DNA of 64,000 bases, taken from positions 32,001 to 96,000 of the IMG/VR virus record IMGVR_UViG_3300021424_000003; one strand, written 5' to 3'. Position 1 is the stretch's first letter. Each line of letters starts with the position of its first letter. The stretch comes from a virus. The position numbers were made by a program, and so were the translations under genes. Shown here piece after piece: positions 12,198 through 37,049 of this stretch. Under the pieces are notes generated by a model, which had not been told where the DNA came from, did not search any database, and was given only the letters and a program-made list of their open reading frames with translations.

Positions 12198-12998
12198 TTA
12201 GATTTCCGTATGCTGAGAGATGAAATCCAATAGTCGCTCTGCGGTAGTAGTCCCAACCACGACTGAATCGTTTCTTAGCCATCTAATGAACTCGTACCAC
12301 TTCGCCTGCTGGTCAGGACTATCAAAAACTATCGTGTACTGAACAACCGCCTGAGGCCTTTCCCCTTGAGCGGAAACAGTCGAACCCCTAACAGCAACAT
12401 CTGATTGATTGGCAGAAGGTGGTGCAATAATTCTGTTTTCTCCATTGGAATCTCTAGAGACCGTAAAAGATGGTTCCTGAACGTCGTCGTCTCCATCGGG
12501 TTCGATTCCTGGTTGAGAAACTAAAAAGGGGGGCACGTATTGGCCGGTTGCCGACAGCTCGCTACTGTTTCTTTCCATTTCCTGCTCATACTCAGCCATC
12601 TCAAACTCATCCCACCCAAGGCTCTCCATCAGCTCTGGGTAGTAGTCACTAACTTCTATGACTAATTCAAAAACTGCCTCACTGTCTGAATAACCCAATT
12701 CAACAGTTCTATTATCCGCGAGAGCGAAAGCTATTGCTCGGGAGTCGTCGCCCTCCAAGTAAACGACGGCAATTTTGTCCCATCCGAGCTCCTTTGCTGC
12801 TTCTATCTGGTGATTACCAGCGATAACAGTGGCTGTTCCGTCGTCGTTCTTTTTTGCAACGATTGGTTTTACTTGGCCAAACTCAGCATACGAAGCGACT
12901 ATTGCCGGGATGTCCCCGATACGAGGGTTCTTCGGCAACGGTACAAGTGTGTCTATGTCCACCGCCATGGAACGTAGGGATGGGTGTATTCCGTCCAT
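12198..12998 (-). CDS. ParB N-terminal domain protein
   Basis: LVPLPKNPR.GD...SYAEFGQVKPIV...VIAGNH...AA..LGW..IAVV...ALADNR. Confidence 0.85.
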   Translation of the reverse strand: MDGIHPSLRSMAVDIDTLVPLPKNPRIGDIPAIVASYAEFGQVKPIVAKKNDDGTATVIAGNHQIEAAKELGWDKIAVVYLEGDDSRAIAFALADNRTVELGYSDSEAVFELVIEVSDYYPELMESLGWDEFEMAEYEQEMERNSSELSATGQYVPPFLVSQPGIEPDGDDDVQEPSFTVSRDSNGENRIIAPPSANQSDVAVRGSTVSAQGERPQAVVQYTIVFDSPDQQAKWYEFIRWLRNDSVVVGTTTAERLLDFISQHTEI

Positions 12999-21157: not shown

Positions 21158-24100
21158 ATGTCAAAATCCTTCGTGAATCCTGAAATTCAGTACAAAGCTG
21201 CCACTCAGGGTGCAATAAACCTAGACGAAGCCAGGGGCATAGTCGAGTGTTTCGTGGCAGGAATTGGCAACAAGGACTCCGTTGGCGATGTTTGCGCCCC
21301 TGGGGCATTCGCCAAAAGCCTATTGCGCCGGAAACCAAGAGTTGTGTGGGGCCATAACTGGAACGACCCAATCGGCAAGGTTCTAGAAATTTACGAAGTT
21401 CCAGCAAACGACCCAAGACTTCCGAGCAAGATGAGAGCAGCGGGTATTGGTGGGCTCTACGCAAAAGTTCAATTCAACCTAATGTCAGAAAAAGGCAAGG
21501 AAGCATTTGCGAGTGTTGCATTCTTTGGCGAAGAGCAGGAATGGTCAATTGGGTATAAGACAATCAACGCAAAATTTGACCAGCAGATGCAGGCGAATGT
21601 TCTATTTGAGGTAGAGCTTTACGAGGTGAGCCCTGTTCTTCACGGTGCAAATCAATTGACTGGAACAATATCTGTTAAGTCGGATGAAAATAATGCCACC
21701 GCAGTGATGGAAAGGGCTGTTAGTTCCATCGCGAATGCCGATAGTGAAAATTCTCCGGAACTAAAAGAGGTTCTATACGCACTCAGAAATATTGCTTCCA
21801 TGATTTCCGATAACGAGAAGCATGAGTATGGAATGCCCTCAGTAATGCCTTCAGCAAATAGACAACCTATTCCATCAATGCCAAGCCCTGCTCCGTCCAC
21901 GGCGCCGAGGTCAGTAGTCAAGCCAACAAGACCATCTATCCCTGAAAACCCCATGGTAGTTGCTCTTCGCCGTGAGCTGGTCGCAAGAACTGGGTCGAAC
22001 ATAATTGTCCGCTCTGCTGGAGACAATGTTGTTGTATTTGACCGAATTATGAGCGACGGTTCGTCTTGCACGTACAGACTTGCGTATCACTATGCAGATG
22101 GTGAATTCATGTTTGGTAAGCCAGAGAAGGTCAACGCGCAGACCGTTTACACTCCCGAGACTCCTGGGGCACCAGGAGATGCATACTGGGGAGACGATTA
22201 CTCAGAAACACCAAAGTCATTGCAATCTGGTGATTTTTGGAGTGCCGGTTTTTATAGCGAGCTGACCTCGCAGCCAGACACAAGCAATGCCCTCATGGAG
22301 GTGATAGAGAGTCTTCAACATCTAATCAATGAAAAATCGGAATACGTAATACCAGTAGAGCCGGCAGAGGCTTTTGAGTTAAGGCAAATGATTGACCCAG
22401 TTCTCGAGTATTACAACGCTGACGCCAGAGTAACCGAGGAGGGGATTGTAGTTAAGTCAGCACACAATCCAGAGCTAATTGAAGCTCTTGATGTCGCGAC
22501 TAAGTCCGTGCTGGGAAAAATCCGAAGGGGCATTGGCGCTGGAAGGCGTCTTGATGCTCCAAACATTGGTGGCGGTAAAGGTCGTAGCAGAGCAGCGCGA
22601 GCAATTGGCGCAGCAACTGGCGGTGTAGCTGGAAATCTAGACCCTTCAAAAATATCTCTCAACGACCCGGACGGAGACGGGTGGGCCAGAGAGGGTTCAA
22701 GAAATCCTGTTTGGGTTGGGTTTAAAAAAGCAGTAGAAAAAATTGCGGGCAGCGTTGGCCGGAAGAAGAAGCCATCAAAAGACAAGCAAAGGGCCCGCTC
22801 TGCTGTTAATGCAGATAAACCCGGTCCGCCGAGAGTAAGGTCCGGAGCGCCGTGGGATGCTCCATTAACTCCTGCTCCGCCTCGTCCTAGCAGAGTGACG
22901 CTTACAGATGATGCTGGAGCAAGACTAAGAGAACTCGGCAAAGAAAGAGCCAGAGAGCTTGGCTTTGACAGAAACATTGACCCCGTCCTTCCAAGACCGC
23001 GCAAGAAACTTACAAACCAAGTATCCGCTGCCCCACGCCCTGGAGAGGGCAGAAGTAGGGCATCGGGCGAATCAATTGCGAATGCAATACGTCGCTCAAA
23101 GAGCGCACCAAACCCTGTCCTTGGCCAGGAAATGGCAAATGATGTAGCTAAGTTCGGCTACCCGGAAGAGATGTCAACGGATGACCTAGTGAGAACGGTC
23201 GGCAAATTTAGAGGAGAAATAGCCAAGGCTAGAGAGAATCTAGAAAAGATTCAGGCAGATAGAGACTCTGGCAAAAAAGTATCTTCTTCAGAAATCGGAA
23301 AAGCTAGACAAAGTGTCGACTCCCTCCGTCAGAGAGCGTCTGTTTACTCATCCGAAATATCAAAGCGCGACAAAATAAAAGGTTCCGACAGATTCTCTTC
23401 AGGAAAAGCCATTACCCCAGAAGACAGACGCAAAAGAAGACATGCTCCGCTGGGTACAACTGGAGAATTTGACCTTCCAGACGAAGTTGCCACAAGAAAT
23501 AAGCACGAAGAGTTTGTAGCAGAATTTAGAAAAAACAACGGATTTTGGCTGGATATCCCAAGAGAGGGAACCGTCGCTTCAATGAATACGTCGGAGGAGT
23601 GGCAGAGGGCTAGAGAAATAGCAACAAACGTCGGGATTCTTGAGTGGCAGGAAAATGAAAGAAATAGAAGGCCGAAGGGTTTTAGCGAAAAAGCGCGTTC
23701 GTCCATGGACTACCTAACATGGTTCGGTGGATATACAAAGCGCCTTGGTGACTATCTCGATAGGGAAGAGTCCAGTGAAAATGTAACCGATGACGAACTT
23801 GCTGGTGCAAGGGCGGCAGTACTAGATGCATTGGCATTCAGAATGGCAACGCCAACTGGTCCAGAAAGCCAAAATACGCTTGCGGCAATGCTCGCAGACG
23901 CCGGATTCGGTCCAAATGGAAAACACGAAAAAGCATTCGGTGGGCGCAAGAAATCCAGCGTTGTTGGATTCTCTTCTGGTCGCGGAAACAGAGTAGACAC
24001 TCGAGTGCTAGACCAACTTATGAACGATGGTAAAGAGGTCAGCGACGATGACGTGAAGGCAATACTTATGCCTAACGCCGGCATATTGATGCATCCAGAA

Positions 24101-27100
24101 TATAACGACAGAACCGGCGAGGTATCTCTTGGCTGGAAGAACGTCCTAGAATCCTCATTAGAGGACAGGAGTTTCAATAGGGGTTCCCAGAGGGCGATGA
24201 TTCGCCTTGACGATGAGGGTTATCAAAAATTTACAGAGGCACTAGAAGCAGCAAATGGAGAGCTGACCCCATCGGACGGCCTGCCATCTAGCTCAAGAAG
24301 CGTAAGGGACAGGGAATACCCATATTCATGGGGCAAGTCTCGAATGGGGGCTTTTTCATCTGGGCGCAAGTATCCACCAGAAATAGAAGACGAGCTTGTA
24401 TTCGATTCCGAACTGGGCGGCAATAGAGCAGCAGACAGAATCAATACCGAAAATGTCGACATGGAGATAGTTCCATCTTCCGATATTGGCCTTGATGGTC
24501 CAGATGATGGAGCATGGACTGTTGTCGGCATGTACAGGGGAGAAGACTATGGCTCCGTCGACTACATCTATGAACTAGATACTTTTGATTCGGTAGAAGA
24601 AGCAAGACGCTTCATAGAGACATTTGACAGATTGATAGATGAGGAAATTAGACCTGGCGACCCAGATTTCTTCCTCGATATAGATAACTACAACAAAGAC
24701 AACAAAATATCCCTGGATGATGACCTTGACTCCGCTATATCTAAGGCTGTTCAGTCAAGAAAAGATAGAGAGAACGACCCATACGACTATGGCAGTCTCC
24801 TGTCATCAGTTCTTTCCGACAGGTCATTAAACCTTTTTGGTGATGGAGAATCAAGATTCTCTTCCGGAAGAAACAAAGCAGAAAGACGCCAATCTGTCAA
24901 GAGAGTCATGGCAGAAGATATGGCCGATAGAGAGGTCAATCTAGGAATACTTTCTCGCCGCATGAAGGGTGAAACCCTGGACGAAGTAGGTAGAGCATAC
25001 GGAATAGACAGGGGAACAGTCCGCCAAATGGAGATGCGCGAGATGAAGCGTCTCAGGGATGGAGCAACACCAAGCGAAATACTTGCCTACAGAATGACAG
25101 GCCTCACACTCGACGATATGGGCAGAATGCTCGGCATGTCCCGTGAAGAGGTTAGAAGAATCGAGTCTAGAGAAATAGCACGGATGAGACTCGGCGGTCG
25201 CGACGGAAGCGACGCGATATTCGAGGGTCGTAAAGCTGGTCTAAGCCGCAATTCAATCAAAAAGCTAACTGGCATGTCTATGGATGACATAGCGACTAAG
25301 GAAAGAAAAGGATTTGAGAGGGCCGTAACACGAGAAGATGTCTCTCATCAGATATTTGACAAATACGTAACTAGATTCGGCGAAGACGAACTAACTGATG
25401 CGGAACTTGCGGAGGAGCTAGGGGTTAGCGAAAGAATTGTTTCCGAAGTTCGCGCGGGGGCAAAGAAAGACATACTCGATGCCCGTCGTGGCATGGACGA
25501 ACACTACAGCAGCCTTCCGGAGCCAACCGACGAAGAGCTTCAGGAGATGGCAGACTACTATGCAAATGATTTTGCTAGAGAGCAGGGTTTTGGCTCCTAT
25601 GCGGAGTATAAGGATTATGTTTCCAGTGTCGGCAGGGAAGACGATGGAGAGAGGCTGTCTTCTGGAGCAGGTAAGCGCGACCTTACATTTAGTCAAAAAG
25701 TTGGTCAAAGAGTATTTGAGGAAGCAGAAAAGATAGCCAAAGAAGACAATAGGGACATTTTCGACACCCTGGATTCGCTCGTCTTTGATAAGCGCATGGA
25801 TTCAACGAATCGTAGAAAAGATTTCGATGTAGCAGAGATGTATTCTCACATTAATTCCCTTCTTTTCCCAGAGGGTGCTAGAGAAAGCAGGAAGCGCAGA
25901 CTCTGGAGAAGAGAAAGACTCTCCTCTGGCAGAACCGGTAGAGGTCGGAAGAATCGGCGACAGGGCAAATCAAATCAGGGAGCATGGTCAGAAGAGGACC
26001 TTCAGAGATTCCGCGATAGAAATGTTCTACGCGCCAAAACTCGTCCCGGAAAGCGCAAGGATGGCCCATCAGCGGAAGAATTCTCTTCTGGACGCAAGAG
26101 AATAGATACGGCCGGTAGTTCAGCGCTGACTGGAGCATTCTACGATGCCGACAACAAAAGGCTTGTTGTCGGATTCAACAAGGGTGGGGTATATGCCTAT
26201 GACGGCGTAACCCCAGAAGACATAGAAGAGATGCACAATGCCGAAAGCAAAGGTGCAGCTATGGCTTCTATCAAGAAGAAGTACAAAGGCGTAAGACTTT
26301 CAGAAGCGGACGACAGCTTTAAGGCCACCAAACAGGGTGACGAATGGGTTGTAAATCCAGATAACGAAACGACTTACTCAATATCCGAAGACGGTGGAGA
26401 GTTCTTTGTTCTGAGAACTTCTGGAAGCTACGCACGCGATGGCGGCCAGTCTGGAGATGAGTACTACCATCCAGAGTCGTTTAAGAATATGGACTCCGCG
26501 ATGAAGTGGGTCGAGCAGGACTTCCTGCCATCAATAACTCCAGAACCGTGGGACGAAGATGACTACGATGTAGACAGGCTTTCATCTGGTGGGCCAGCTC
26601 GCGCCGCAGCCCAGATGCAATTTGATACTCGTAGAAGTAGAAAAGCGACAGAAATGACATACGACCCGCAAGACGGTCGTGTTGGAATAACTTATAACGA
26701 TGGAAAGCAGAGATTCTTCTCCGAGGTGCCTTACGAGGTTGCTAGGGCGGCAGGCAATCCATCAAAAGATATAGACAACTTCATTGATGACCTAGAGCGC
26801 GGGAAAGTGGGCAAGGAGGGCGGAAGATTTAGTTCCGGTGCAAGCTCGGTGCCTCGCACTGACTTTGATTACTCCTATCAGAAGTTCCCACCGACAGAAG
26901 AGCAGGCAGTCATTGCGGATGCGGTGGCGACTGGCGAGAACGTAATTGTAAGAGCATTCGCCGGCACTGGCAAAACTTCTACTCTTGTAATGATTGCTGA
27001 GAGACTGAAGCGTCAGGACCCAAAGAAGAAAATCGTCTACATGGCGTTCAACAAGGACATCCAGCTTGAGGCTGAGGGAAAGTTCCCTGGTAATACAGAG

Positions 27101-30100
27101 TCACGAACAGGCGACTCCATATCGTGGAACTGGGTCAAGCAGACAATGGGCGAAGCCTTCACGGACAGAATGAAGGGCAACCCACCAGAAAGAGTGAAGT
27201 CAAAGGGAACAAGAAACAAGGATATATCTATTCATTTCAAGATTAAACAAATGGAGCATCCGGACGGGCTAAAAGATGAGAAAACCGGAAACCCCATAGT
27301 CCTTGATGCTGTTGATGTTACAAAGCTTGTAAGAGAAGCGGTTAAAGAATTCCTTATTTCGGAAGACGATGAGATAGGCACACAGCACTTTAAGAAAATA
27401 CAGAATGTTCCACCAGCTCTTTTGGGACATGCCAAAGCTATATGGGATGACATGAACGACCCTGATGGCGTGATGAAATTGGATAACTCCGTATTCACCA
27501 AGATGTGGGCACTATCTAGGCCTCAGCTCAGTGACGGTGTCGGTCTATTCAAAGGAAAGCCATCAGTAATATTCTTTGACGAAGCTCAGGACATAAACCC
27601 AGTAATGGCAAAAGTCATGCGGGAACAGAACATCCAAGTTATATTTGTTGGAGATAGTTACCAGGCTATTTACGGATTCCGTGGAGCATCGGACAGTCTC
27701 GAGAAAGCGGAAGCCACATATGACTTGCCTCTCACTGGGTCATGGAGATTCGACAGCAAGATAGCTGGATACGCAAACAGATTCCTAGCGTACATGGGTT
27801 CAAAAGATAGAATTCGTGGCGTAGGAAAGCCGGGTGATGGTGTTGTTGAACCAGAGTCGATGGTTGACCCAGATGCAATTCTGACAAGAAGTAACGGTGG
27901 GGCGCTACGTGCAGTTGTTGAGCAAATAAAAAACGGAAGAATCGTAGGGACTTCGGAAAACTTCAAGAAAGACCTAACGAAATTCGCATGGCACGCAATA
28001 AGTCTCAAGGCCGATAAGCCAGTAAAAAATCCACATCCAGAACTAGAGGAATTCTCTTCATGGCAGGAGGTTACAGATGCAGCCAACGCCGAGGATGCAA
28101 GCCCTCGACTAAGAATGCTTGTACAGCTATTCAATGACACACCAAACATTATCGAGATACTGGACCAAGTCGTTGTCGGTGGCAAGCTCAGGGGGGAATC
28201 TGGTGGAGGCTCCGGCAAGAGGATTCTTCCTAGCGAAGTAACAGATGGCTTTGAGATGTCCATAGACCCAAGCAGTCTGGGTAAATGGGCAGGAGACAAA
28301 AAGACATCCGTTTTGTACAAAAATGGAAAACTGTTCTTTCAGTTGCCATACACAGCAAAAGGCTCATCTGGTGATGACAGCAAAAAGAGCTGGATTAAAG
28401 AAAACTTAGGAAAAATCAATCGCTTTGAGTATGGCAAGCCAGAAGAGACTGGCGGCAAGTTTGCAGTATTCGTAGACGCAACACCAGAACAGGCTGCAAA
28501 ACTTCTCTCCGGAATAACATCGGGTGATGCTCAGGAAGTAGACGTCATGGTAATGACGGCACACAGGTCAAAGGGTCTTGAGTTCGGAAAAGTTCAGCTT
28601 TACGGAGACTTCCCAAGACCAAGAAAGAACAAGAATACCGGTGAGATGGAGTACCCAGCTCCGGAAGAGCAAAGACTTCAGTACGTTGCATCAACTAGGG
28701 CCATACGCGAACTAGACCCAGGCCCAACTTCATGGATATATAACGAAACATCTGAAGATGACGAAAGCCCAGGCGTACCTAGTGGTTTCTCGTCTGGCGC
28801 AAAAGGTAACCCAATGCCGAGCGCCATTGGTAAGGACATGGTTCTAGAAGACGGCGGCACATACGAAGACAACATGTTTAGGGGCACGTACGTTGCCGAC
28901 TTTAATGGCGGGAAGATGGTAATCCAGCCGGCAGGCAGGGATTCGTGGGCTGTTTACAGGGCAGACTTTATGGGCGGCGAAGATGGGCCTTCTTACAACT
29001 TCAGCTATGGTCCACCAACGGACGAGTCTGAGTTCAGTTCACTCGCAGACGCATACGAGCATGTTCTCAATTATGTAAAAGACAACGACATAACGCTTGA
29101 CCAGATGGATGGAAGTCGCCGCTCAAAGGGGAGTGAGTCCTTCTCGGTGGCAAAAATCGGAAACTCCGGTTCTGGAATATCTGAAAGATTTAGCTCAGGT
29201 CGCAAGAATGCCGATAAAAGATTAAAGGCAGCTAGAAAATTTTCAAGGGGGGGAGATGCCGATGATGATGGTCGTCTGTCTTCTGGAAAGAGAGATTCTG
29301 ACGAAGGGTTCGCATCGGGCCGAATACTGTCTCGACTTCGCGGCCGAGAAGAAACCACTCAGAAAGAAGCAGATGAACTCTATAAATGGGCGGCGGAAGC
29401 AAGCAAGAAGCGTCCCGACGACGAATACTTGAGTCGCGTTGTTGGTAAGGGCTCAGAATACGGAGAAGGTCTAGACGAAAAAGACTTCGAATACATACGC
29501 CAACAACAGCTCATTGATTTTATAGTCGATAACGACCTGCACCTACGCGACCCGGAAGGAGCTGGTCGAATATTAGATATATGGACCGGTGAAAGCCGGG
29601 GAAGAATTAAAGATAAAGACTGGGAGGCCCTGTCGGAACTCCGATACCGGCGCCAACAGAGAGAGGACGACGCATTTAATCGTGAAGCATTAAAGGACGT
29701 TGCCGAATCGCAAGGCATGCCACGTGACGACCAGCAAAAACTTGCCATTTTTGCGTGGGCGGCTTCTCGATTTGGGAAATATCCACTGGTAGAAGACGTC
29801 GTGAGAGGTGGGAGAACAAACATCCCAAACAGCCTCGACGACAGAGAATGGAAATTTCTTAAAACCGAATGGCTCAACAGCGACGCTCCAGACCCACAAC
29901 CACTCAACACTAGAATGACCAATGGTGACATGGGCCCAGATAGGTATCTAGAACAAGACTATCTAGCGTACATGCGCGAGAGCGGTATGACCGGCTTGCT
30001 GGAAAAGTACCAGACGCGAGGTGGACTGACCGGCAAAGATTGGGCTTATGTAAAGAAGTTACACGACGACCTTGGCCCAAGGGGATGGCGAAATCCAAAG

Positions 30101-33100
30101 AGTGCCTCATACAGGGGAATAACTAGAAAAGAAAGAAGGGAAATTGACAAAAAAACTGGACGCCTGAGTGATTGGGATGTTCTGACCGAGGCACAAAGAG
30201 CTTCACTAGAGAAGCGCAAGGAAAAATTCAACCTTACAGAATCAATGGCCAACGCGCTTTCTTCAGGCCGTACCACCCCGAATAAGCCCAAACAGGATGA
30301 TGGTCGTTTGTCTTCTGGCGGTGACCCTACTCCTGAACAGATTGAAGCGGAAGACAGAGAAAATAGGGCTGACTTCTACAAGAACAGCTCTGGTCTTTAT
30401 GAAAATGAACTTGCCGAATGGCTGGATGCAAATCCAAGCAAGACAGAAAAAGACTATGAGTCAAGCCCTGAATTTGCAGAGAGACTTGACGATATGGACA
30501 GCATCATGGGCGATTTCGCCGATGCTGAGGCAGAACGTCGTCTAGATGATTATGCAAATCGCATGTCGTCCGGGGGAAAGCCACCCCGTTATCCACGACC
30601 CCCCACGCTCGGAGCGTTTCTCGGTTCTACGGATGACTTATTCAAAAATGTAGATTCATGGGAAGATTTCAGGAATATATACAACGACCAAGAAATCATA
30701 TTTTTTGATTACGAAACTACCGGTTTAGTATTTGATGAATTCGGCAGAGCGACTAGCAACGGAGCACCAGTTCAGTTTGGTGCAGTAAAAATTAAAAACG
30801 GCAAAGAAATAGGCCGAATAAACCTATTCATGAACCCCGGCGAGTCGCTCGGAGAATGGTCGCGAAACAATCTCAAAGACATAGACGGAAATCCACTAAC
30901 AGATGACTGGCTTGGTGGACAGATTTCCGTTGAAGATGCTCACAAACAGCTAATCGAGTTCGCTGGGGCTGATGCAATATTCGGAGTTCAAAATGCAACG
31001 TTTGATAAAGCTGTTTTGGACGATGTGTTATCAAAAATGAAATCGGACTGGAGGCCGTCAGGCTACATAGATACACGAGAGCTCGCAAGCCTTGTGCTCC
31101 CCAGATGGACACCAGAAACAGAAGATGGGCCATTTCAGACAAACAAAGATGGTGAAAAGGTCCCTTCCTCAAGTCTTGCCGCAATTACTGAATATCTTGA
31201 CGTTGAGCTTGGAGATGGCCACCACAACGCAGATGTTGATGCTTTCGCAGCAAGCGAAGTAATGAGAAAAATGATTGATGGGGCAATCGAAAATGATTGG
31301 TCGCGAGATGCCCTATCAAAAGAAAAACGTGATTCTCGTCATGCGGAAACGATTGCAAAATTTGAAGAGAGCGTTCGGCAATTTGAGTCAGAATTAAGCC
31401 AGTATGGTCTATCTTCTGGGCGCCGCCAGCGGCCATCTGATGAGGAGATTTATAACCTCAGAATGTCTGGCCCAACCCTAGAGGAAGTCGGGGAGAAGTA
31501 TGGAATGACGCGCCAAGAAGTGCGCGCTGCAGAAATGCGCCATATCAGGAAAATGCGTGATGCCGACTTTGAGGCAACTGGGGCACAGACATCTAGAAGA
31601 GAGCGTCGTCTATCTTCTGGAGGGAGACCCACACGCGCCGGTTCAGCAAAACAAAGAGGGAAAGTAGTCCTCACAAGCCAAGAACCAGGCGGTAAGTGGA
31701 CTGACGTACCAGAAAACCAACTAAGTCGAAAAGACGATTTCTTTGACAATGAAACAGCTTCAAGAATATTGGATAACCCACTAGAGAATTACAACGACCA
31801 AACCGGCTGGCCAGTAGCTGCTAGGGATTTCTTCCAAAGCCTAGTTTTGCAGCAAGAAGGAAGAGACATTCCTGTAATGGATGAAGATGGAAGGTTCACG
31901 CCTGAAGGACGCAACCAAGTCAAGAAGATGCTTTTCGGCTCTAATGAAGCAAGGGAAAAATTCCTAGACCAAATAGAGTCAGGCGATGTATCTCATATGC
32001 AGGCCGTTGCGGCTATCACAATTCTCGAAAAGCTTGGCGACGATAATACAAAACTGGGCCCAAGGGGTGCTTCAGACCACATGTTGGAAACATTTGGGTT
32101 TAAGTCTGCACCAGTCTGGGTTTCTGGCCTGGATTCAAGAGACCCCGACTACGACCTTATAAGAGGAGAGGTCAACTGGACTCCGTTGTCCGAAGAGCAG
32201 TGGCTTGATGAGGTCAAGCAGGCGTATGTTGATAACAAAAACATAACCAACTATGTTGGAAATAGAAGAGATTGGGTTACAAAGAATAAGGGCAAGTCTG
32301 AAAAAGACTACGAATCAAGTCCTGAATTCATCGCAGACGCTAAGCGCGCATACTTGGAGAACAAGAACACCATTGGTCCTGCAGAAGTCTACTCTCACCC
32401 ATTCACACATTTCTATGGGATGCGTGAAGAGCAAAAAGATACAGTCAAGAAGAATTGGCTTTCCCAGAACCCTGGCAAAACAGACGCTGATTACGACAAA
32501 GCAATGTCGTGGGACGGAGAGGGTGACCCTGACAAGTCAACGGAAGCTGGAAGTTGGGGATTTGGAGACCCACGCAGTCTTGGTGGGAAACCATCTACAC
32601 AGGCAGATGGTGCTTCTAGTAAGAGGCCGACTTCAGCACGGGGTACGACTAAGAGGCCGACTTCAGCACGGGGTACGACTACTTCTTCATTGCCGCCGGA
32701 AACGACACAGAAGCTATTCCAAGCCATAAAGCTCGATACGATTCTGTCGGCGCTTGGTATAAAAGACGATGTTACCAGAGAAGAACAAAGAAAGAAGCTT
32801 TCTGAACTTATTGGATTTACGATAACGGAGGACTCATTCAAGGGCTACAAGCGCACGGGTCCGAGGCCAAGAATTATTCTGGAACTTCTACGCAGGGGTC
32901 ACATTAAGGACCTAGATTCGCTACGCGAAGCCGACAGGACAGATGCAAACCTGGGGAACCTTGTCAATCAAGCAAGAGACTCAGTTTTCATTGCTACCGC
33001 ATACGGAAGACTGCGTGAAGCAGCAAGAGGTGCTGGTTTGTCTGAGGATTCATTTGGAGCAAGGCTTTGGGGGAGACTCGGGAAAGAATACGAAGACCAT

Positions 33101-35368
33101 GTTATTAATGGTAAGGGGCAGCCAAGAAGCAGGATGGCTGACGGTGCAATTCCAAAAACGTTTAACCTAAGCAAACTAGACCTTATTGGGGAAACGGAAC
33201 TGTCAGAACTTGTTGACGGCCTAAATGCAATGGCTGAATCAGAGGGCTCTTCTGCTCGGTTTACGATTGACGATATATTCCCCAAGAACGATAGAGGTTA
33301 CATCGATGCATTCGGTGAATCAAAGATAAGAATGAGCAGCGGAAAACCATCTACGCAAAAGGGACAGAGATTCGTTGCCAAGCCTAAGGGGAATAGGCTA
33401 ACCAGTGCTGCAAATGACACTGCTGAAATGAGATTCTCCTCGGCGGCTAGACCAACGTACAGAACACCTGGCGGAGGAATCGACAAAGATGCAATGTCTG
33501 CAGATATTGAAGATGCGATTCGCGGTCCTCGACTTGGCGCTGTTGCAATAACTTCTGCAAATGCAGAAACGGTCGGCAGAGAGCAAGTAGATAATCTCAC
33601 TAGAGCCATAACTCTTCGTCAGCACATAGCAGACATGTTCCCAAGCGTTGTTAACGATAGAACACAGGTCTCCTACGATATAGAGCCTCTCCTGACGGAG
33701 CAAGGCATAAGTCCAAAAGATGCAGAAAAACTGACAGACCTAGTTAACGACCTAGATGAATACATCGACGGGATAGTTAAGCAGTTCGAGGACGAGGGTG
33801 ACAAGCTAGAAAGCGGTCTGCGCGAAATGACAGACATGCTCGACGAGGTATCTGAGCTACGTAAGTATCGCAAAGAGACAATCGACAAGTATGGCGAAGA
33901 TGACGCAAGAAACTTGATAGACAGACTTGACGAAAAGATAAATAAACTTACGACATCAATTGATGACAAGTATCAGGCTACCATAGGTAGCAACAGAACA
34001 AACATGGCAAAACTTCGCGATGAAGCGCTTGCCTTGGTTGACGAAAATCCAGGGTTTGACAGGCCAAAGAAGGGCGGCGACAAGCCGCGCCTATCAAGCG
34101 GCGCCAACTCCCTGTCGTCGAAGCTGATAGGCATTGAAATGGCCATGGGCCGAGCCGAAGAAGGCGGTCTACCTAAATACAAGCCGGTCAGCAAGATGGA
34201 CATGAACCTTCCAAACGGAACGCGCCTGTCTTCTGGCAAGGCTGACGAATGGTACGAGAACCTGACAGCGAAGCTTGTAGAGCAGATTGAAAAGATTCAG
34301 GCATCGGGCGGGGACAAGTGGGAATTCCCATGGCATCGAACTGGGGCCATGCCGAAGAACGCAATCAGCGGCCACGTTTTCTCTGGTATGAACCCATTTG
34401 TCCTGTTGCTTGCTGCTGATGAAAAGGGTTACTCAACACACCGCTGGGCTACATACAAGCAGTGGCAGAGCGTGGGTGGAAATGTAATGAAGAACGAAAA
34501 GGGCCAGACACTCCTGAAGCCAGTTTTCAAGAAGGTTAAGGACCCAGACACAGGTAAAGAAGAGACAAAGCTTGTCAACTGGAGCGCATATACCGTGTTC
34601 AACGTTGCCCAGGTGGAGGGAATAAATCCAGAAGATTACGACGACAAGCCCAAAGACCTTCTTGATGAGGCAGCCAGAGTGGAGAGGGCCGAAAAAGCAT
34701 TCGCCATAGTCGGTGCAGACATAGAAACCGGAGATGGCTCACGTGCTTACTACAGCCCGTCAAACGATAAGATAGTTATGCCGCCGTTTGCTTACTTCAA
34801 GACCCCAGAGGGCTACTACGCGACCCTTGGCCATGAGCTTGTTCACTGGACTGGACACTCCTCCAGACTTGATAGGCCAAACATGAACCGCTTCGGCACC
34901 CCTGCATACGCTCGGGAGGAATTGGTTGCAGAGCTTGGCTCGGCTTTCTTGATGGCCAATTTCGGCATGGCTGCAGAGCCACGAGAAGACCACGCTCACT
35001 ACCTGGCCAACTGGCTAAAGGTTTTGCGCGAGGAGCCAAAGGCCCTACAAGAAGCAGCAAGAGAGGCCCAAAAGGCGTCGAAGCTTCTCATCGAAAAGAT
35101 GAGGGAAGTGCTTGAGGGTGCCGAAGTAGCCGAAGAAACGCTTGATGATGTTGACGGGACGAAGAGCGCATGGGTCGGAATGTCTGACGACATTGGGAGA
35201 GAATCACTGCTCCAGGTTGCAGGCATTCTTCCCGCATACCTACGCATGGAGGTGGAAGCGGCCATTAAAAGCACCGCCCCAGGGGGACCCCTATCAACTA
35301 AGGTTATTAACAGAATTTCAAAAACAATTGAACTTCTAGAGACATTCTCAAAGCAAAAAGGTATTTGA
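21158..35368 (+). CDS. 4736-aa polyvalent protein: N-terminal HK97-type prohead protease plus multiple cargo domains
   Basis: Protease at about aa 1-175 (DSVGD..APGAF, WGHNW..PIG, EWSIGY, LYEVSPV..GAN). Then sigma-r4-like HTHs, KTSC, SF1 helicase, DEDDh exonuclease and ArdC plus HELVH zincin, separated by [FLM]SSG motifs. Confidence 0.9.
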   Translation: MSKSFVNPEIQYKAATQGAINLDEARGIVECFVAGIGNKDSVGDVCAPGAFAKSLLRRKPRVVWGHNWNDPIGKVLEIYEVPANDPRLPSKMRAAGIGGLYAKVQFNLMSEKGKEAFASVAFFGEEQEWSIGYKTINAKFDQQMQANVLFEVELYEVSPVLHGANQLTGTISVKSDENNATAVMERAVSSIANADSENSPELKEVLYALRNIASMISDNEKHEYGMPSVMPSANRQPIPSMPSPAPSTAPRSVVKPTRPSIPENPMVVALRRELVARTGSNIIVRSAGDNVVVFDRIMSDGSSCTYRLAYHYADGEFMFGKPEKVNAQTVYTPETPGAPGDAYWGDDYSETPKSLQSGDFWSAGFYSELTSQPDTSNALMEVIESLQHLINEKSEYVIPVEPAEAFELRQMIDPVLEYYNADARVTEEGIVVKSAHNPELIEALDVATKSVLGKIRRGIGAGRRLDAPNIGGGKGRSRAARAIGAATGGVAGNLDPSKISLNDPDGDGWAREGSRNPVWVGFKKAVEKIAGSVGRKKKPSKDKQRARSAVNADKPGPPRVRSGAPWDAPLTPAPPRPSRVTLTDDAGARLRELGKERARELGFDRNIDPVLPRPRKKLTNQVSAAPRPGEGRSRASGESIANAIRRSKSAPNPVLGQEMANDVAKFGYPEEMSTDDLVRTVGKFRGEIAKARENLEKIQADRDSGKKVSSSEIGKARQSVDSLRQRASVYSSEISKRDKIKGSDRFSSGKAITPEDRRKRRHAPLGTTGEFDLPDEVATRNKHEEFVAEFRKNNGFWLDIPREGTVASMNTSEEWQRAREIATNVGILEWQENERNRRPKGFSEKARSSMDYLTWFGGYTKRLGDYLDREESSENVTDDELAGARAAVLDALAFRMATPTGPESQNTLAAMLADAGFGPNGKHEKAFGGRKKSSVVGFSSGRGNRVDTRVLDQLMNDGKEVSDDDVKAILMPNAGILMHPEYNDRTGEVSLGWKNVLESSLEDRSFNRGSQRAMIRLDDEGYQKFTEALEAANGELTPSDGLPSSSRSVRDREYPYSWGKSRMGAFSSGRKYPPEIEDELVFDSELGGNRAADRINTENVDMEIVPSSDIGLDGPDDGAWTVVGMYRGEDYGSVDYIYELDTFDSVEEARRFIETFDRLIDEEIRPGDPDFFLDIDNYNKDNKISLDDDLDSAISKAVQSRKDRENDPYDYGSLLSSVLSDRSLNLFGDGESRFSSGRNKAERRQSVKRVMAEDMADREVNLGILSRRMKGETLDEVGRAYGIDRGTVRQMEMREMKRLRDGATPSEILAYRMTGLTLDDMGRMLGMSREEVRRIESREIARMRLGGRDGSDAIFEGRKAGLSRNSIKKLTGMSMDDIATKERKGFERAVTREDVSHQIFDKYVTRFGEDELTDAELAEELGVSERIVSEVRAGAKKDILDARRGMDEHYSSLPEPTDEELQEMADYYANDFAREQGFGSYAEYKDYVSSVGREDDGERLSSGAGKRDLTFSQKVGQRVFEEAEKIAKEDNRDIFDTLDSLVFDKRMDSTNRRKDFDVAEMYSHINSLLFPEGARESRKRRLWRRERLSSGRTGRGRKNRRQGKSNQGAWSEEDLQRFRDRNVLRAKTRPGKRKDGPSAEEFSSGRKRIDTAGSSALTGAFYDADNKRLVVGFNKGGVYAYDGVTPEDIEEMHNAESKGAAMASIKKKYKGVRLSEADDSFKATKQGDEWVVNPDNETTYSISEDGGEFFVLRTSGSYARDGGQSGDEYYHPESFKNMDSAMKWVEQDFLPSITPEPWDEDDYDVDRLSSGGPARAAAQMQFDTRRSRKATEMTYDPQDGRVGITYNDGKQRFFSEVPYEVARAAGNPSKDIDNFIDDLERGKVGKEGGRFSSGASSVPRTDFDYSYQKFPPTEEQAVIADAVATGENVIVRAFAGTGKTSTLVMIAERLKRQDPKKKIVYMAFNKDIQLEAEGKFPGNTESRTGDSISWNWVKQTMGEAFTDRMKGNPPERVKSKGTRNKDISIHFKIKQMEHPDGLKDEKTGNPIVLDAVDVTKLVREAVKEFLISEDDEIGTQHFKKIQNVPPALLGHAKAIWDDMNDPDGVMKLDNSVFTKMWALSRPQLSDGVGLFKGKPSVIFFDEAQDINPVMAKVMREQNIQVIFVGDSYQAIYGFRGASDSLEKAEATYDLPLTGSWRFDSKIAGYANRFLAYMGSKDRIRGVGKPGDGVVEPESMVDPDAILTRSNGGALRAVVEQIKNGRIVGTSENFKKDLTKFAWHAISLKADKPVKNPHPELEEFSSWQEVTDAANAEDASPRLRMLVQLFNDTPNIIEILDQVVVGGKLRGESGGGSGKRILPSEVTDGFEMSIDPSSLGKWAGDKKTSVLYKNGKLFFQLPYTAKGSSGDDSKKSWIKENLGKINRFEYGKPEETGGKFAVFVDATPEQAAKLLSGITSGDAQEVDVMVMTAHRSKGLEFGKVQLYGDFPRPRKNKNTGEMEYPAPEEQRLQYVASTRAIRELDPGPTSWIYNETSEDDESPGVPSGFSSGAKGNPMPSAIGKDMVLEDGGTYEDNMFRGTYVADFNGGKMVIQPAGRDSWAVYRADFMGGEDGPSYNFSYGPPTDESEFSSLADAYEHVLNYVKDNDITLDQMDGSRRSKGSESFSVAKIGNSGSGISERFSSGRKNADKRLKAARKFSRGGDADDDGRLSSGKRDSDEGFASGRILSRLRGREETTQKEADELYKWAAEASKKRPDDEYLSRVVGKGSEYGEGLDEKDFEYIRQQQLIDFIVDNDLHLRDPEGAGRILDIWTGESRGRIKDKDWEALSELRYRRQQREDDAFNREALKDVAESQGMPRDDQQKLAIFAWAASRFGKYPLVEDVVRGGRTNIPNSLDDREWKFLKTEWLNSDAPDPQPLNTRMTNGDMGPDRYLEQDYLAYMRESGMTGLLEKYQTRGGLTGKDWAYVKKLHDDLGPRGWRNPKSASYRGITRKERREIDKKTGRLSDWDVLTEAQRASLEKRKEKFNLTESMANALSSGRTTPNKPKQDDGRLSSGGDPTPEQIEAEDRENRADFYKNSSGLYENELAEWLDANPSKTEKDYESSPEFAERLDDMDSIMGDFADAEAERRLDDYANRMSSGGKPPRYPRPPTLGAFLGSTDDLFKNVDSWEDFRNIYNDQEIIFFDYETTGLVFDEFGRATSNGAPVQFGAVKIKNGKEIGRINLFMNPGESLGEWSRNNLKDIDGNPLTDDWLGGQISVEDAHKQLIEFAGADAIFGVQNATFDKAVLDDVLSKMKSDWRPSGYIDTRELASLVLPRWTPETEDGPFQTNKDGEKVPSSSLAAITEYLDVELGDGHHNADVDAFAASEVMRKMIDGAIENDWSRDALSKEKRDSRHAETIAKFEESVRQFESELSQYGLSSGRRQRPSDEEIYNLRMSGPTLEEVGEKYGMTRQEVRAAEMRHIRKMRDADFEATGAQTSRRERRLSSGGRPTRAGSAKQRGKVVLTSQEPGGKWTDVPENQLSRKDDFFDNETASRILDNPLENYNDQTGWPVAARDFFQSLVLQQEGRDIPVMDEDGRFTPEGRNQVKKMLFGSNEAREKFLDQIESGDVSHMQAVAAITILEKLGDDNTKLGPRGASDHMLETFGFKSAPVWVSGLDSRDPDYDLIRGEVNWTPLSEEQWLDEVKQAYVDNKNITNYVGNRRDWVTKNKGKSEKDYESSPEFIADAKRAYLENKNTIGPAEVYSHPFTHFYGMREEQKDTVKKNWLSQNPGKTDADYDKAMSWDGEGDPDKSTEAGSWGFGDPRSLGGKPSTQADGASSKRPTSARGTTKRPTSARGTTTSSLPPETTQKLFQAIKLDTILSALGIKDDVTREEQRKKLSELIGFTITEDSFKGYKRTGPRPRIILELLRRGHIKDLDSLREADRTDANLGNLVNQARDSVFIATAYGRLREAARGAGLSEDSFGARLWGRLGKEYEDHVINGKGQPRSRMADGAIPKTFNLSKLDLIGETELSELVDGLNAMAESEGSSARFTIDDIFPKNDRGYIDAFGESKIRMSSGKPSTQKGQRFVAKPKGNRLTSAANDTAEMRFSSAARPTYRTPGGGIDKDAMSADIEDAIRGPRLGAVAITSANAETVGREQVDNLTRAITLRQHIADMFPSVVNDRTQVSYDIEPLLTEQGISPKDAEKLTDLVNDLDEYIDGIVKQFEDEGDKLESGLREMTDMLDEVSELRKYRKETIDKYGEDDARNLIDRLDEKINKLTTSIDDKYQATIGSNRTNMAKLRDEALALVDENPGFDRPKKGGDKPRLSSGANSLSSKLIGIEMAMGRAEEGGLPKYKPVSKMDMNLPNGTRLSSGKADEWYENLTAKLVEQIEKIQASGGDKWEFPWHRTGAMPKNAISGHVFSGMNPFVLLLAADEKGYSTHRWATYKQWQSVGGNVMKNEKGQTLLKPVFKKVKDPDTGKEETKLVNWSAYTVFNVAQVEGINPEDYDDKPKDLLDEAARVERAEKAFAIVGADIETGDGSRAYYSPSNDKIVMPPFAYFKTPEGYYATLGHELVHWTGHSSRLDRPNMNRFGTPAYAREELVAELGSAFLMANFGMAAEPREDHAHYLANWLKVLREEPKALQEAAREAQKASKLLIEKMREVLEGAEVAEETLDDVDGTKSAWVGMSDDIGRESLLQVAGILPAYLRMEVEAAIKSTAPGGPLSTKVINRISKTIELLETFSKQKGI
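26093..26824 (+). other. KTSC-like domains (one clear, one weaker) within the giant protein
   Basis: SSALTGAFYDADNKRLVVGFNKGGVYAYDGV...AESKG; second copy ATEMTYDPQDGRVGITYNDG...FSEVP. Confidence 0.7.
26840..28783 (+). other. UvrD/SF1 helicase module within the giant protein
   Basis: PTEEQ, AFAGTGKTST, FDEAQD, VGDSYQAIYGFRGA, LTGSWRF, TAHRSKGLEF, YVASTRA. Confidence 0.92.
30575..31405 (+). other. DnaQ-like DEDDh 3'-5' exonuclease module within the giant protein
   Basis: FFDYETTG, QNATFD, YIDT, HNADVD. Confidence 0.88.
32620..32679 (+). repeat. Exact 30-bp tandem duplication (KRPTSARGTT x2)
   Basis: taagaggccgacttcagcacggggtacgac repeated twice. Confidence 0.95.
34238..35110 (+). other. ArdC-like antirestriction module (ssDNA-binding N-domain plus zincin) within the giant protein
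   Basis: W.FPW..P.N..SG..FSG.N...L, WATYKQW...GG.V.K.EKG, TVFNVAQ, AYYSP..D.I.MP, HELVHWTGH..RL.R, YAREELVAELGSAFL, HA.YL..W. Confidence 0.9.
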
Positions 35369-37033: not shown

Positions 37034-37049
37034 AGAAAGCGGACCCCAA

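What the first reader, a model, noticed from the sequence alone, without database searches (positions are those of the whole stretch)
21158..35368. Giant prohead-protease polyprotein punctuated by 20 copies of x-[FLM]-S-S-G at domain boundaries
Seen: after the N-terminal protease, the 4736-aa ORF has x[FLM]SSG starting at nt 23390, 23966, 24350, 24854, 25652, 25916, 26078, 26576, 26825, 28784, 29186, 29273, 30254, 30305, 30560, 31406, 31607, 33329, 34088 and 34223. x is R in 14 of the 20. Variants GFASG (29306) and RFSSA (33431) also occur. The copies use different codons (both TCN and AGY for Ser), so conservation is at the protein level. They bracket the recognisable domains (helicase 26825-28784, exonuclease 30560-31406, HTHs 24854-25652 and 31406-31607, KTSC, ArdC after 34223), and none falls inside one. 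Established: HK97-type proteases are packaged in the prohead, and phage 'polyvalent proteins' carry strings of anti-host domains. Inference: this is a virus-style polyprotein in which the protease tows about 20 cargo modules into the head and a dedicated motif marks where they are cut apart. I do not know of a description of this motif.
Basis: partly seen in the sequence, partly recalled or inferred. Interest (0 to 1): 0.95.

Follow-up and report, generated by a model that had tools for sequence, protein, structure and literature searches.

The report
Tag-punctuated phage protease cargo polyprotein
An uncultured 119-kb tailed phage fuses its capsid-maturation protease to about twenty unrelated protein modules joined by one strict five-residue tag (Arg-Leu/Phe-Ser-Ser-Gly), which looks like a cutting signal that frees proteins delivered with the DNA, although no cut has been observed.

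Summary
All 26 giant homologues carry 11-21 copies. Across 388 unique sites the consensus is acidic/Gly - R - L/F/M - S - S - G - basic. Inter-tag segments behave as modules that are shuffled, gained and lost. R[FLM]SSG occurs in only three proteins of this genome: this ORF, a second 2213-aa head-region ORF and the tail tape measure. New here: sister clades with 62-84% identical proteases use other tags (DGFASRG, GLASS[ST], GMRS[RS], GLSSG) sharing the core Phi-x-Ser. One 91%-complete relative carries 16 tags but no recognisable zinc protease. Best reading: cleavage sites, most likely read by the fused assemblin-fold S78 protease. That step is inferred. The tape-measure sites and the tag-free 745-residue N-terminal region argue against a purely in-prohead cut. 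No paper describing the tag was found. This scan has already found the same system on other genomes.

The parts
21158..35368 (+). 4736-aa protease-led polyvalent polyprotein
   Evidence: ORF; identical protein on record (P0002); Pfam and PHROG domains
21239..21673 (+). Peptidase_S78 (HK97-type, assemblin-fold) prohead protease domain, residues 28-172; H66, S130, H162 invariant
   Evidence: PF04586 35.2 bits against cut-off 21; invariant columns in 40 sequences; AF2 model matches T4 gp21 with Z 11.4
21158..23392 (+). tag-free N-terminal unit (residues 1-745): protease plus conserved post-protease domains, possibly scaffold or capsid-binding
   Evidence: first tag at residue 746 here and at 544-742 in the 23 homologues that are complete at the N-terminus; one module family present in 24 proteins
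23390..23404 (+). tag 1 RFSSG
23966..23980 (+). tag 2 GFSSG
24350..24364 (+). tag 3 AFSSG
24854..24868 (+). tag 4 RFSSG
25652..25666 (+). tag 5 RLSSG
25916..25930 (+). tag 6 RLSSG
26078..26092 (+). tag 7 EFSSG, at the end of a 54-aa basic module present in 24 proteins
26576..26590 (+). tag 8 RLSSG
26825..26839 (+). tag 9 RFSSG (before the helicase module)
28784..28798 (+). tag 10 GFSSG (after the helicase module)
29186..29200 (+). tag 11 RFSSG
29273..29287 (+). tag 12 RLSSG
30254..30268 (+). tag 13 ALSSG
30305..30319 (+). tag 14 RLSSG
30560..30574 (+). tag 15 RMSSG (before the exonuclease module)
31406..31420 (+). tag 16 GLSSG (after the exonuclease module)
31607..31621 (+). tag 17 RLSSG
33329..33343 (+). 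tag 18 RMSSG
34088..34102 (+). tag 19 RLSSG
34223..34237 (+). tag 20 RLSSG (directly before the ArdC unit)
26897..28717 (+). UvrD-type SF1 helicase module
   Evidence: PF00580, PF13361, PF13245; phrog_1967
30698..31261 (+). RNase_T / DEDD exonuclease module; the surrounding modules are absent from the closest homologues P0003 and P0004
34250..35062 (+). ArdC-N ssDNA-binding domain plus MPTase-PolyVal zincin; the two are not separated by a tag
   Evidence: PF08401 7.9e-24 and PF18818 2.4e-44; phrog_7245
36993..43634 (+). second giant head-region ORF (2213 aa). About 1450 residues at the N-terminus carry no tag, then come three R[MF]SSG tags at nt 41358-41372, 41763-41777 and 42420-42434
   Evidence: no Pfam or PHROG match; 43% identical over 1779 aa to a 3490-aa ORF of G005 that carries 7 tags
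3..4931 (-). tail tape measure protein (1655 aa; its stop lies beyond the window start) with two RLSSG tags at nt 4820-4806 and 2891-2877
   Evidence: phrog_167; lies downstream of sheath, tube and chaperone genes; tags; both sites aligned in the G005 homologue
18955..21057 (+). portal protein (context)
   Evidence: tblastn to annotated portals, 1e-80
49440..50771 (+). major capsid protein (context); carries no tag
   Evidence: phrog_10 1.6e-65

Best explanation
The ORF is a phage polyprotein. An N-terminal HK97-type (S78, assemblin-fold) capsid-maturation protease and its tag-free companion region (residues 1-745) are followed by about 20 cargo modules. These include HTH/sigma-r4 domains, KTSC, a UvrD helicase, a DEDD exonuclease, many modules of unknown function, and ArdC with its zincin. 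The modules are joined by exposed linkers that carry the tag [acidic/Gly]-R-[L/F/M]-S-S-G-[basic]. The tag is a proteolytic cleavage signal that acts genome-wide, in cis and in trans: it also marks a second giant head-region protein and the tape measure. The most likely reader is the fused S78 protease, recognising the clade-invariant core Phi-x-Ser. That core has the same shape as the Phi-x-small rule of herpesvirus assemblins and the (L/I)-x-E rule of T4 gp21 (both rules recalled, not tested here). [quoted passage not shown] Shown here: the tag, its statistics, its conservation, its position at module boundaries, its clade-specific variants, the protease fold and its conserved His/Ser/His. 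Inferred: packaging, cutting, which enzyme cuts, which bond is cut, and delivery into the host. The confidence given (0.55) is for the whole statement including the S78 protease as reader; that the tag is a cleavage site at all I hold at about 0.8.
For: 1. There are 20 tags where 0.34 are expected. 26 of 26 giant homologues have 11-21 where 0.3-0.6 are expected. Three unrelated giant UvrD proteins have 0, 1 and 1.
2. The tag is strict. After R[LFM], Ser/Ser/Gly occupy 248 of 252, 248 of 252 and 248 of 253 unique sites. The codons differ.
3. The tags lie in linkers. Flanks are poor in hydrophobic residues and no tag falls in a Pfam match. 462 inter-tag segments fall into 57 multi-member module families that are reordered, duplicated and lost between proteins. 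34% of 279 BLAST HSP ends lie within 15 residues of a tag, against 14% of random points.
4. The tag acts in trans. All 19 R[FLM]SSG of the 119-kb genome lie in three proteins. The same three-protein pattern occurs in the complete relative G005. In L033, L067 and L080 separate cargo ORFs carry the tag of their own genome.
5. The tags are clade-specific and share a core: PhiSSG, PhiASR, PhiAS[ST], PhiRS[RS]. On the protease tree, 42 of the 44 rows of one clade (support 100/98) are PhiSSG. All classes together need 11 label changes, against 35.8 when labels are shuffled.
6. The tag does not need the zincin. G003 (136 kb, 91% complete) has 16 tags in five proteins (0.38 expected, maximum 3 in 2000 shuffles). 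It has no PF18818 match and no hit to my local ArdC/MPT HMM. S78 is the only peptidase that Pfam finds in its tagged ORFs and in two of its other HExxH-bearing ORFs (3355 aa and 521 aa; two short frames of 119 and 106 aa were not scanned). Four stop-terminated polyproteins (L023, L055, L056, L057) have 8-10 GLSSG and no ArdC/MPT in 11.7-20.6 kb of sequence held. Conversely, 106 more distant ArdC/MPTase proteins (100,556 aa) hold only 4 PhiSSG in all.
7. The protease looks intact. H66, S130 and H162 are invariant in 40 sequences. The AF2 model (pLDDT 74) matches T4 gp21 at Z 11.4, rmsd 2.6 A over 126 residues, then VZV protease (Z 7.2) and HCMV protease (Z 5.8). Protease positions 46-47, 84, 86, 93-94, 137-139 and 150 differ by tag class.
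Against: No cut, no virion protein and no neo-terminus has been observed; everything rests on sequence. The tape measure carries two conserved tags, and a tail protein is not exposed to a protease confined to the prohead. Residues about 200-745, which should include any scaffold-like part that a prohead protease normally shreds, hold no tag in any homologue, and the major capsid protein holds none. So the tag may be a second code read by another enzyme. Most PhiSSG-class polyproteins do carry an intact HExxH zincin. The agreement between tag class and protease tree and the class-specific protease residues are also what plain vertical inheritance would give. G003 is 91% complete, not 100%, and an unrecognised protease cannot be excluded. 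61 of 152 HSPs run across a tag, so many neighbouring modules are inherited together. Two earlier follow-ups of this scan, on other genomes, preferred a zinc protease.
Confidence: 0.55

Rival explanations
1. The tag is a cleavage site, but it is read by a second phage protease: the ArdC-type MPTase zincin of the polyprotein, or another zinc or unknown protease. This could act in the cytoplasm or after ejection. The S78 protease would then only mature the capsid.
For: This protein carries an MPTase-PolyVal domain (E 2.4e-44) with the HELVH motif visible in the printed translation. Iyer et al. 2017 proposed MPTases as the processing enzymes of polyvalent proteins (passages read). The tags in the tape measure and the tag-free scaffold-like region fit an enzyme that is not confined to the prohead. 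Earlier follow-ups of this scan reached this view on other genomes.
Against: G003 (91% complete) and four complete polyproteins carry tags with no recognisable MPTase or other zincin. 106 other MPTase-bearing proteins lack the tag. ArdC-N plus MPTase is an ordinary stand-alone unit elsewhere and is not split by a tag here.
Confidence: 0.2
2. The tag is not a cleavage site. It is a recognition or modification signal shared by proteins that leave the virion, for example for loading, threading through the tail, chaperone binding or Ser phosphorylation.
For: The three tagged proteins are all plausibly ejected: head cargo, a second head-region protein and the tape measure. R-x-S resembles the sites of basophilic kinases (recalled, not tested).
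Against: The tag sits at module boundaries and often in closely spaced pairs 17, 29 and 45 residues apart. Sister clades use tags without Arg. Tagged cargo in this family is always linked to a protease gene, fused or adjacent. Modules such as ArdC work as free proteins elsewhere.
Confidence: 0.12
3. The tag is cut by a host protease after delivery, and the clade-specific tags reflect different hosts.
For: The tape-measure sites and the trans action need an enzyme outside the capsid. The host is unknown: only binned metagenome contigs hold close relatives.
Against: The tag class follows the phage protease tree closely. A strict five-residue site that changes between close phage clades is more simply explained by a phage-encoded reader. 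No host candidate was identified.
Confidence: 0.05

Closest known systems
Polyvalent proteins of phages and conjugative elements (Iyer, Burroughs, Anand, de Souza, Aravind 2017, PMC5512222; abstract and passages read)
   Same: One polypeptide combines many disparate domains, including ArdC-N, an MPTase zincin and helicases. It is encoded with virion genes. That class was predicted to be delivered with the DNA and proteolytically processed.
   Different: [quoted passage not shown] Here the protease is N-terminal, the chain has about 20 modules, and a strict tag punctuates it. The paper's supplementary architecture lists were not seen and could hold related forms.
Prohead-protease processing of head and ejection proteins in T4 (gp21), phiKZ (gp175) and SPN3US (gp245) (PMC5694885, passages read)
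   Same: A capsid protease of the same fold (Z 11.4 to gp21) cuts many head-internal and ejected proteins at one short consensus. Multiple sites per substrate are common.
   Different: Those substrates are separate gene products with N-terminal propeptides, and their motifs end in Glu (AXE, S/A/G-X-E). Here the cargo is one chain fused to the protease, the tag is R-Phi-S-S-G with no Glu, and a tail protein is tagged too.
Herpesvirus assemblin and its (V/L/I)-x-Ala|Ser sites (recalled; structures matched)
   Same: Same fold, and a conserved His/Ser/His set at similar spacing (H66, S130, H162). The site shape, hydrophobic - any - small residue, matches the clade-invariant core Phi-x-Ser.
   Different: Assemblin is fused only to its scaffold and cuts two sites. 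The correspondence of subsites is an analogy, not a test.
Cultured actinophage relatives (Gordonia phage Gray, Streptomyces phage Gilgamesh)
   Same: Portal and protease are 38-45% identical. The space between portal and protease holds cargo-like genes: an RNA ligase, an ADP-ribosyltransferase, an HTH protein, and a 4624-aa gp48 in Gilgamesh.
   Different: The protease is a separate gene. No tag is present: gp48 has 1 PhiSSG in 4624 aa and no over-represented 4-mer above 5 copies.

Membership tests
Peptidase S78 / HK97-type prohead protease (assemblin fold) | Sequence match to the family profile above the curated cut-off | tested here: met
   PF04586 35.2 bits against cut-off 21, residues 28-172; phrog_3244 head maturation protease 4.7e-14; tblastn 1e-29 to annotated capsid maturation proteases
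Peptidase S78 / HK97-type prohead protease (assemblin fold) | Assemblin / gp21 fold | tested here: met
   AF2 model with pLDDT 74.2. VIA-align gives T4 gp21 5jbl_A Z 11.4, rmsd 2.6 A, 126 aligned; VZV protease Z 7.2; HCMV protease Z 5.8. Foldseek alone was weak, with E >= 0.043.
Peptidase S78 / HK97-type prohead protease (assemblin fold) | Conserved catalytic His and Ser (plus a second His) | tested here: met
   H66, S130 and H162 are invariant in 40 sequences. Their assignment as catalytic residues is by analogy (recalled).
Peptidase S78 / HK97-type prohead protease (assemblin fold) | Gene lies between portal and major capsid protein | tested here: met
   Portal 18955-21057; MCP 49440-50771
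Peptidase S78 / HK97-type prohead protease (assemblin fold) | Incorporated into proheads and proteolytically active there | not testable with these tools
   No virion data exist; no close cultured relative is in the phage collection
Polyvalent proteins (Iyer et al. 2017) | Several domains of disparate biochemistry in one polypeptide of a phage or plasmid | tested here: met
   S78, sigma-r4 HTH, KTSC, UvrD helicase, RNase_T, ArdC-N and MPTase
Polyvalent proteins (Iyer et al. 2017) | Delivered into the host with the DNA | not testable with these tools
   Inferred only from the position in the head gene module
Virus-style polyprotein with dedicated cleavage sites | A conserved linear motif recurs at domain boundaries, with a protease in the same chain | tested here: met
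Virus-style polyprotein with dedicated cleavage sites | Cleavage products observed | not testable with these tools
   No proteomic data could be reached
T4 / phiKZ-type prohead protease substrates | Cleavage motif of the form x-x-Glu | tested here: not met
   The logo of 388 sites has S-S-G at 100% and no Glu in the core. The system works like these but is not of this motif class.
ArdC anti-restriction protein | ArdC-N ssDNA-binding domain followed by a zincin with HExxH | tested here: met
   PF08401 and PF18818; HELVH seen in the translation; function not tested

The most novel reading that the evidence does not exclude
A large family of uncultured phages (at least 561 IMG/VR contigs) uses a private, clade-specific proteolytic punctuation code (core Phi-x-Ser) to build and rebuild its arsenals of injected proteins as polyproteins. 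The tag works as a universal joint that lets any module be inserted or swapped. Because the tape measure is tagged too, the cut may happen not in the prohead but on or after ejection, carried out by a protease that travels with its substrates. That would be a delivery-triggered activation of about 20 effectors, and a natural, portable protease-and-tag pair.
Probability: 0.25. Interest if true: 0.9.

Novelty: new variant of a known kind. Interest (0 to 1): 0.8.

Why it matters
If the tag is cut, this would be a polyprotein strategy, typical of RNA viruses, used by a tailed dsDNA phage to load or deliver about 20 proteins stoichiometrically. It would also show how such arsenals evolve by module exchange at a standard joint. 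It would define a new specificity (Phi-x-Ser) for the HK97/assemblin protease superfamily, with natural variants in sister clades, which makes specificity evolution directly testable. It would give boundaries for dozens of unknown modules (57 recurrent module families here), each a candidate early-infection or counter-defence protein. The tagged tape measure bears on the old question of how and when tape measures are processed.

Tried and rejected
- **DNA-level repeat as the cause.** Rejected: the 20 sites are 20 different 15-mers.
- **General feature of ArdC/MPTase proteins.** Rejected: 106 distant ones hold 4 PhiSSG in 100,556 aa.
- **Feature of the nearest cultured relatives.** Rejected: Gordonia phage Gray head-region proteins and Streptomyces phage Gilgamesh gp48 lack it. 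Actinomycete prophage proteases 33-41% identical are ordinary 490-857-aa ORFs without tags.
- **Sequence search of the protease profile against PDB chains.** No match at E <= 1.
- **Foldseek alone.** No match at E <= 0.001. The fold was settled by VIA-align.
- **Complex prediction, protease domain with a 40-residue tag linker.** No verdict: score 0.00, controls not run. This is evidence neither way.
- **ESM Atlas on the universal 574-aa module.** No usable hit.
- **Pfam and PHROG on the 2213-aa ORF and neighbouring head-region ORFs.** Nothing found except DUF3721 in the 245-aa ORF.
- **Host identification.** Close relatives occur only in binned metagenome contigs assigned to unrelated phyla, so the host is left open.
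- **Second AF2 job on a multi-module stretch to show disordered linkers.** Not run. No collinear deep alignment could be built, and single-sequence models would be uninformative.
- **Literature.** Seven searches found no description of the tag or of an N-terminal protease-led polyprotein. Supplements were not opened, and subscription journals are not covered.
Full report
**The observation.** The window holds an uninterrupted ORF at 21158..35368 (+), 4736 codons long. The identical protein is on record from two contigs (P0002). That residue is R in 14, G in 3, A in 2 and E in 1. The two near-variants, GFASG and RFSSA, are present. Composition predicts 0.34 copies, and 2000 shuffles gave a mean of 0.33 and a maximum of 3. 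The 20 sites are 20 different 15-mers that use TCN and AGY serine codons and all four Gly codons. So the signal is selected at protein level and is not a DNA repeat.

**Identity of the protein.** Pfam finds these domains:

| Domain | Residues |
|---|---|
| Peptidase_S78 | 28-172 |
| Sigma70_r4 | 1267-1300 (best of two stretches) |
| KTSC | 1654-1703 |
| UvrD-type helicase | 1914-2520 |
| RNase_T | 3181-3368 |
| ArdC-N | 4365-4481 |
| MPTase-PolyVal | 4509-4635 |

PHROGs agrees. No tag lies inside any of these matches. The helicase, exonuclease, KTSC and ArdC units are each bracketed by tags.

The gene sits between the portal (18955-21057) and the major capsid protein (49440-50771). On the other strand lie the large terminase, tail sheath, tail tube, tail assembly chaperone and a 1655-aa tape measure. 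The genome is one 119,344-bp contig of a contractile-tailed phage.

In an alignment of 40 protease domains H66, S130 and H162 are invariant. An AF2 model (pLDDT 74.2) matches T4 gp21 with Z 11.4 (rmsd 2.6 A, 126 residues), then VZV protease (Z 7.2) and HCMV protease (Z 5.8). Foldseek alone gave only E >= 0.043 for the same families, and a sequence search of PDB chains found nothing.

**The tag is a family property and marks module joints.** A search with the whole protein returned 26 giant homologues (2937-4759 aa; three are cut at the N-terminus). All 26 carry 11-21 [FLMIV]SSG where 0.3-0.6 are expected, and none before residue 544 in the N-terminally complete ones. Three unrelated giant UvrD proteins from the same search have 0, 1 and 1.

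From 388 unique sites the logo is as follows:
- Positions -5 to -2: acidic, Gly or Ser.
- Position -1: R 66%, K 8%.
- Hydrophobic position: L 60%, F 33%, M 6%.
- Then S, S, G, each at 100% by construction.
- Positions +4 and +5: R/A/K, then R/K.

When only R[LFM] is fixed, the next three positions are S, S and G in 248 of 252, 248 of 252 and 248 of 253 unique sites. Flanks are poor in hydrophobic residues: 13.7% against 26.6% within 8 residues, and no resample of 5000 was as low.

I cut the 27 proteins at their tags, which gives 462 segments. With at least 60% reciprocal coverage these fall into 127 clusters. 57 clusters have several members and 70 are singletons. Their order differs between proteins. 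For example, the ArdC unit is terminal here but lies mid-chain in P0017-P0028. Modules are also duplicated or missing. The five segments 2680-3419, which include the exonuclease, are absent from the 80%-identical P0003 and P0004. BLAST HSP ends between this protein and 24 homologues lie within 15 residues of a tag in 34% of 279 cases, against 14% for random points. However, 61 of 152 HSPs run through a tag, so blocks of modules are often inherited together.

**The tag acts genome-wide.** In six-frame ORFs of the whole genome, R[FLM]SSG occurs 19 times, and all 19 lie in three proteins:
- this ORF (14 copies);
- a 2213-aa ORF just downstream (36993-43634; 3 copies, all in its last third);
- the tape measure (2 copies).

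Strict [FLM]SSG without R and without the charged flanks occurs once each in a 357-aa ORF and a 646-aa ORF and in some short or antisense frames. I take these as chance.

The complete relative G005 (148 kb, terminal repeats) shows the same pattern: its polyprotein, a 3490-aa ORF (7 tags; 43% identical to the 2213-aa ORF over 1779 residues) and the tape measure (2 tags, aligned with those here; the proteins are 54% identical).

**Sister clades use other tags.** This is the main new result. A full scan of 1.84 billion representative proteins with the protease domain gave 296 hits at E <= 1e-30. The 150 best are 62-90% identical (62-84% outside the PhiSSG homologues already found) and up to 5358 aa long. 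IMG/VR holds at least 561 contigs that encode a relative.

Many long members have no PhiSSG at all but are punctuated by something else:
- DGFASRG (21 copies of GFAS in P0065, 17 in P0068, 19 in P0074);
- RGLASG or GLAS[ST] (P0034, P0090, P0096; 12 in P0107);
- GMRS[RS] (13 in P0073);
- SLRSSG (L080);
- GLSSG (P0039, P0041, L023, L055).

Of 83 proteins of at least 1500 aa, 58 show one of my five patterns at least four times, and 25 show none of them. The shared core is hydrophobic - [S/A/R] - Ser.

On a tree of the protease domain, 42 of the 44 rows of one clade (support 100/98) are PhiSSG. PhiASR fills a 6-row clade (5 of 6 rows; 100/98). Three PhiAS[ST] rows form their own clade (100/99). 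All labels together need 11 changes, against 35.8 after shuffling. Vertical inheritance alone would also give this result.

In some relatives the protease ORF is short (about 1100-1230 aa), and separate cargo ORFs carry that genome's own tag (L067, L080). In L033 the chain is broken into two ORFs.

**Which enzyme reads the tag.** The protein holds two proteases. Iyer et al. 2017 proposed MPTase zincins as the processing enzymes of polyvalent proteins. The same paper states that assemblin-like peptidases are always C-terminal in them (passages read).

Tests made here:
- **G003.** This record (136 kb, CheckV 91%) has 16 G/R/S-[FLM]-[ARS]-S-S tags in five proteins: the tape measure, a 1225-aa protease ORF, and ORFs of 3039, 2206 and 877 aa. 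0.38 are expected, and the maximum in 2000 shuffles was 3. It has no PF18818 match and no hit to a local ArdC/MPT HMM. In its tagged ORFs and in two of its other HExxH-bearing ORFs (3355 aa and 521 aa), Pfam finds RNase_T, KTSC, sigma-r4, Zeta_toxin and DUF3721, and S78 as the only peptidase. Two short HExxH-bearing frames (119 and 106 aa) were not scanned.
- **Complete polyproteins without the zincin.** Four stop-terminated polyproteins (L023, L055-L057) have 8-10 GLSSG and no ArdC/MPT in the 11.7-20.6 kb held. Two of their records were searched with PF18818 and are about 30% complete.
- **The reverse control.** Of 120 ArdC/MPTase proteins of 663-2000 aa, tags occur in the closest ones, which are fragments of this same phage family. 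The 106 most distant (100,556 aa) hold 4 PhiSSG in all.
- **Room for a change of specificity.** The protease is highly conserved, but positions 46-47, 84, 86, 93-94, 137-139 and 150 differ by tag class. This is confounded by phylogeny.
- **Shape of the site.** The invariant core Phi-x-Ser has the shape of known sites of this protease superfamily: (V/L/I)-x-Ala|Ser for assemblins and (L/I)-x-Glu| for gp21 (recalled). SPN3US and phiKZ use AXE and S/A/G-X-E (passages read).

Against the S78 reading:
- The tape measure is tagged at conserved places.
- The 745-residue N-terminal unit and the capsid protein have no tag.
- Earlier follow-ups of this scan on other genomes favoured a zinc protease.

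A complex prediction of the protease with a tag linker gave no verdict.

**Reading.** I hold with about 0.8 confidence that the tag is a proteolytic processing site, and with about 0.55 that the fused S78 protease reads it. The scissile bond is unknown. Ser|Gly would make the invariant Ser the P1 residue, and Ser|Ser would make it P1'. Cutting at all 20 sites would give products of 748, 192, 128, 168, 266, 88, 54, 166, 83, 653, 134, 29, 327, 17, 85, 282, 67, 574, 253, 45 and 377 residues. Where and when cutting happens (prohead, cytoplasm or after ejection) is open. The tape-measure sites suggest that at least some of it happens outside the prohead.

**Comparison and novelty.** The system works like the prohead-protease processing of T4, phiKZ and SPN3US ejection proteins. 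Its protein belongs to Iyer's polyvalent class. It differs in four ways: the protease leads the chain, the cargo is one polyprotein, the tag is new, strict and clade-specific, and a tail protein is tagged.

The nearest cultured relatives are actinophages with 38-45% identical portal and protease. They keep cargo-like genes as separate ORFs in the same place and lack the tag.

Seven full-text searches found no description of the tag. Supplements and subscription journals were not covered.

Within this scan the same system was already reported on other genomes, with tags L/F-SSG, GLSSG, DGFASR, GMRS and LGSR. I looked these up after my own analysis. They prompted the extra zincin and protease-residue checks.

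Noticed in passing
L033:17400-17470: In a relative, the polyprotein ORF stops 7 codons after a GLSSG tag, at A_AAA_AAA GGG TAA. It continues in the -1 frame with the conserved basic module and, further on, ArdC. This is either a programmed -1 frameshift that sets the ratio of short to long forms, or a homopolymer sequencing error.
   Followed up: partly
window 25928-26092 (residues 1591-1645): A 54-aa strongly basic module (with a conserved W-S-x-E-D-x-Q-x-F and a P-G-K-R stretch) is present in 24 of 27 family proteins. It always ends in an atypical tag with Glu before Phe (EFSSG). Its function is unknown; it may bind nucleic acid.
   Followed up: no
window 31616-33337 (residues 3487-4060): A 574-aa module of unknown function is present in all 27 family proteins. 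It has no Pfam or PHROG match and no ESM Atlas hit. Apart from the ArdC unit (27 of 27) and the protease unit (24 of 27), it is the only universal part.
   Followed up: partly
window 48562-49299: A 245-aa ORF just upstream of the capsid gene carries DUF3721. In G003 the same domain heads a tagged 877-aa ORF that also has a sigma-r4 HTH and a Zeta-toxin-like kinase domain. The same modules are therefore free genes in one phage and polyprotein parts in another.
   Followed up: no
window 10888-12027 (-) and 12198-12998 (-): A PAPS-reductase-like gene (phrog_2302, 6e-73) and a ParB-like nuclease or partition gene sit between the terminase and the tail genes.
   Followed up: no
L002 (Streptomyces phage Gilgamesh) 4979-18853: The cultured relative has a 4624-aa hypothetical protein (gp48) between portal and protease. 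It carries no tag of this kind. It may be an untagged counterpart of the cargo chain.
   Followed up: partly
window 18955-21057: Only residues about 9-387 of the 700-aa portal ORF match known portals. The C-terminal 300 residues are unassigned. The Gilgamesh counterpart is annotated as a portal-MuF fusion.
   Followed up: no
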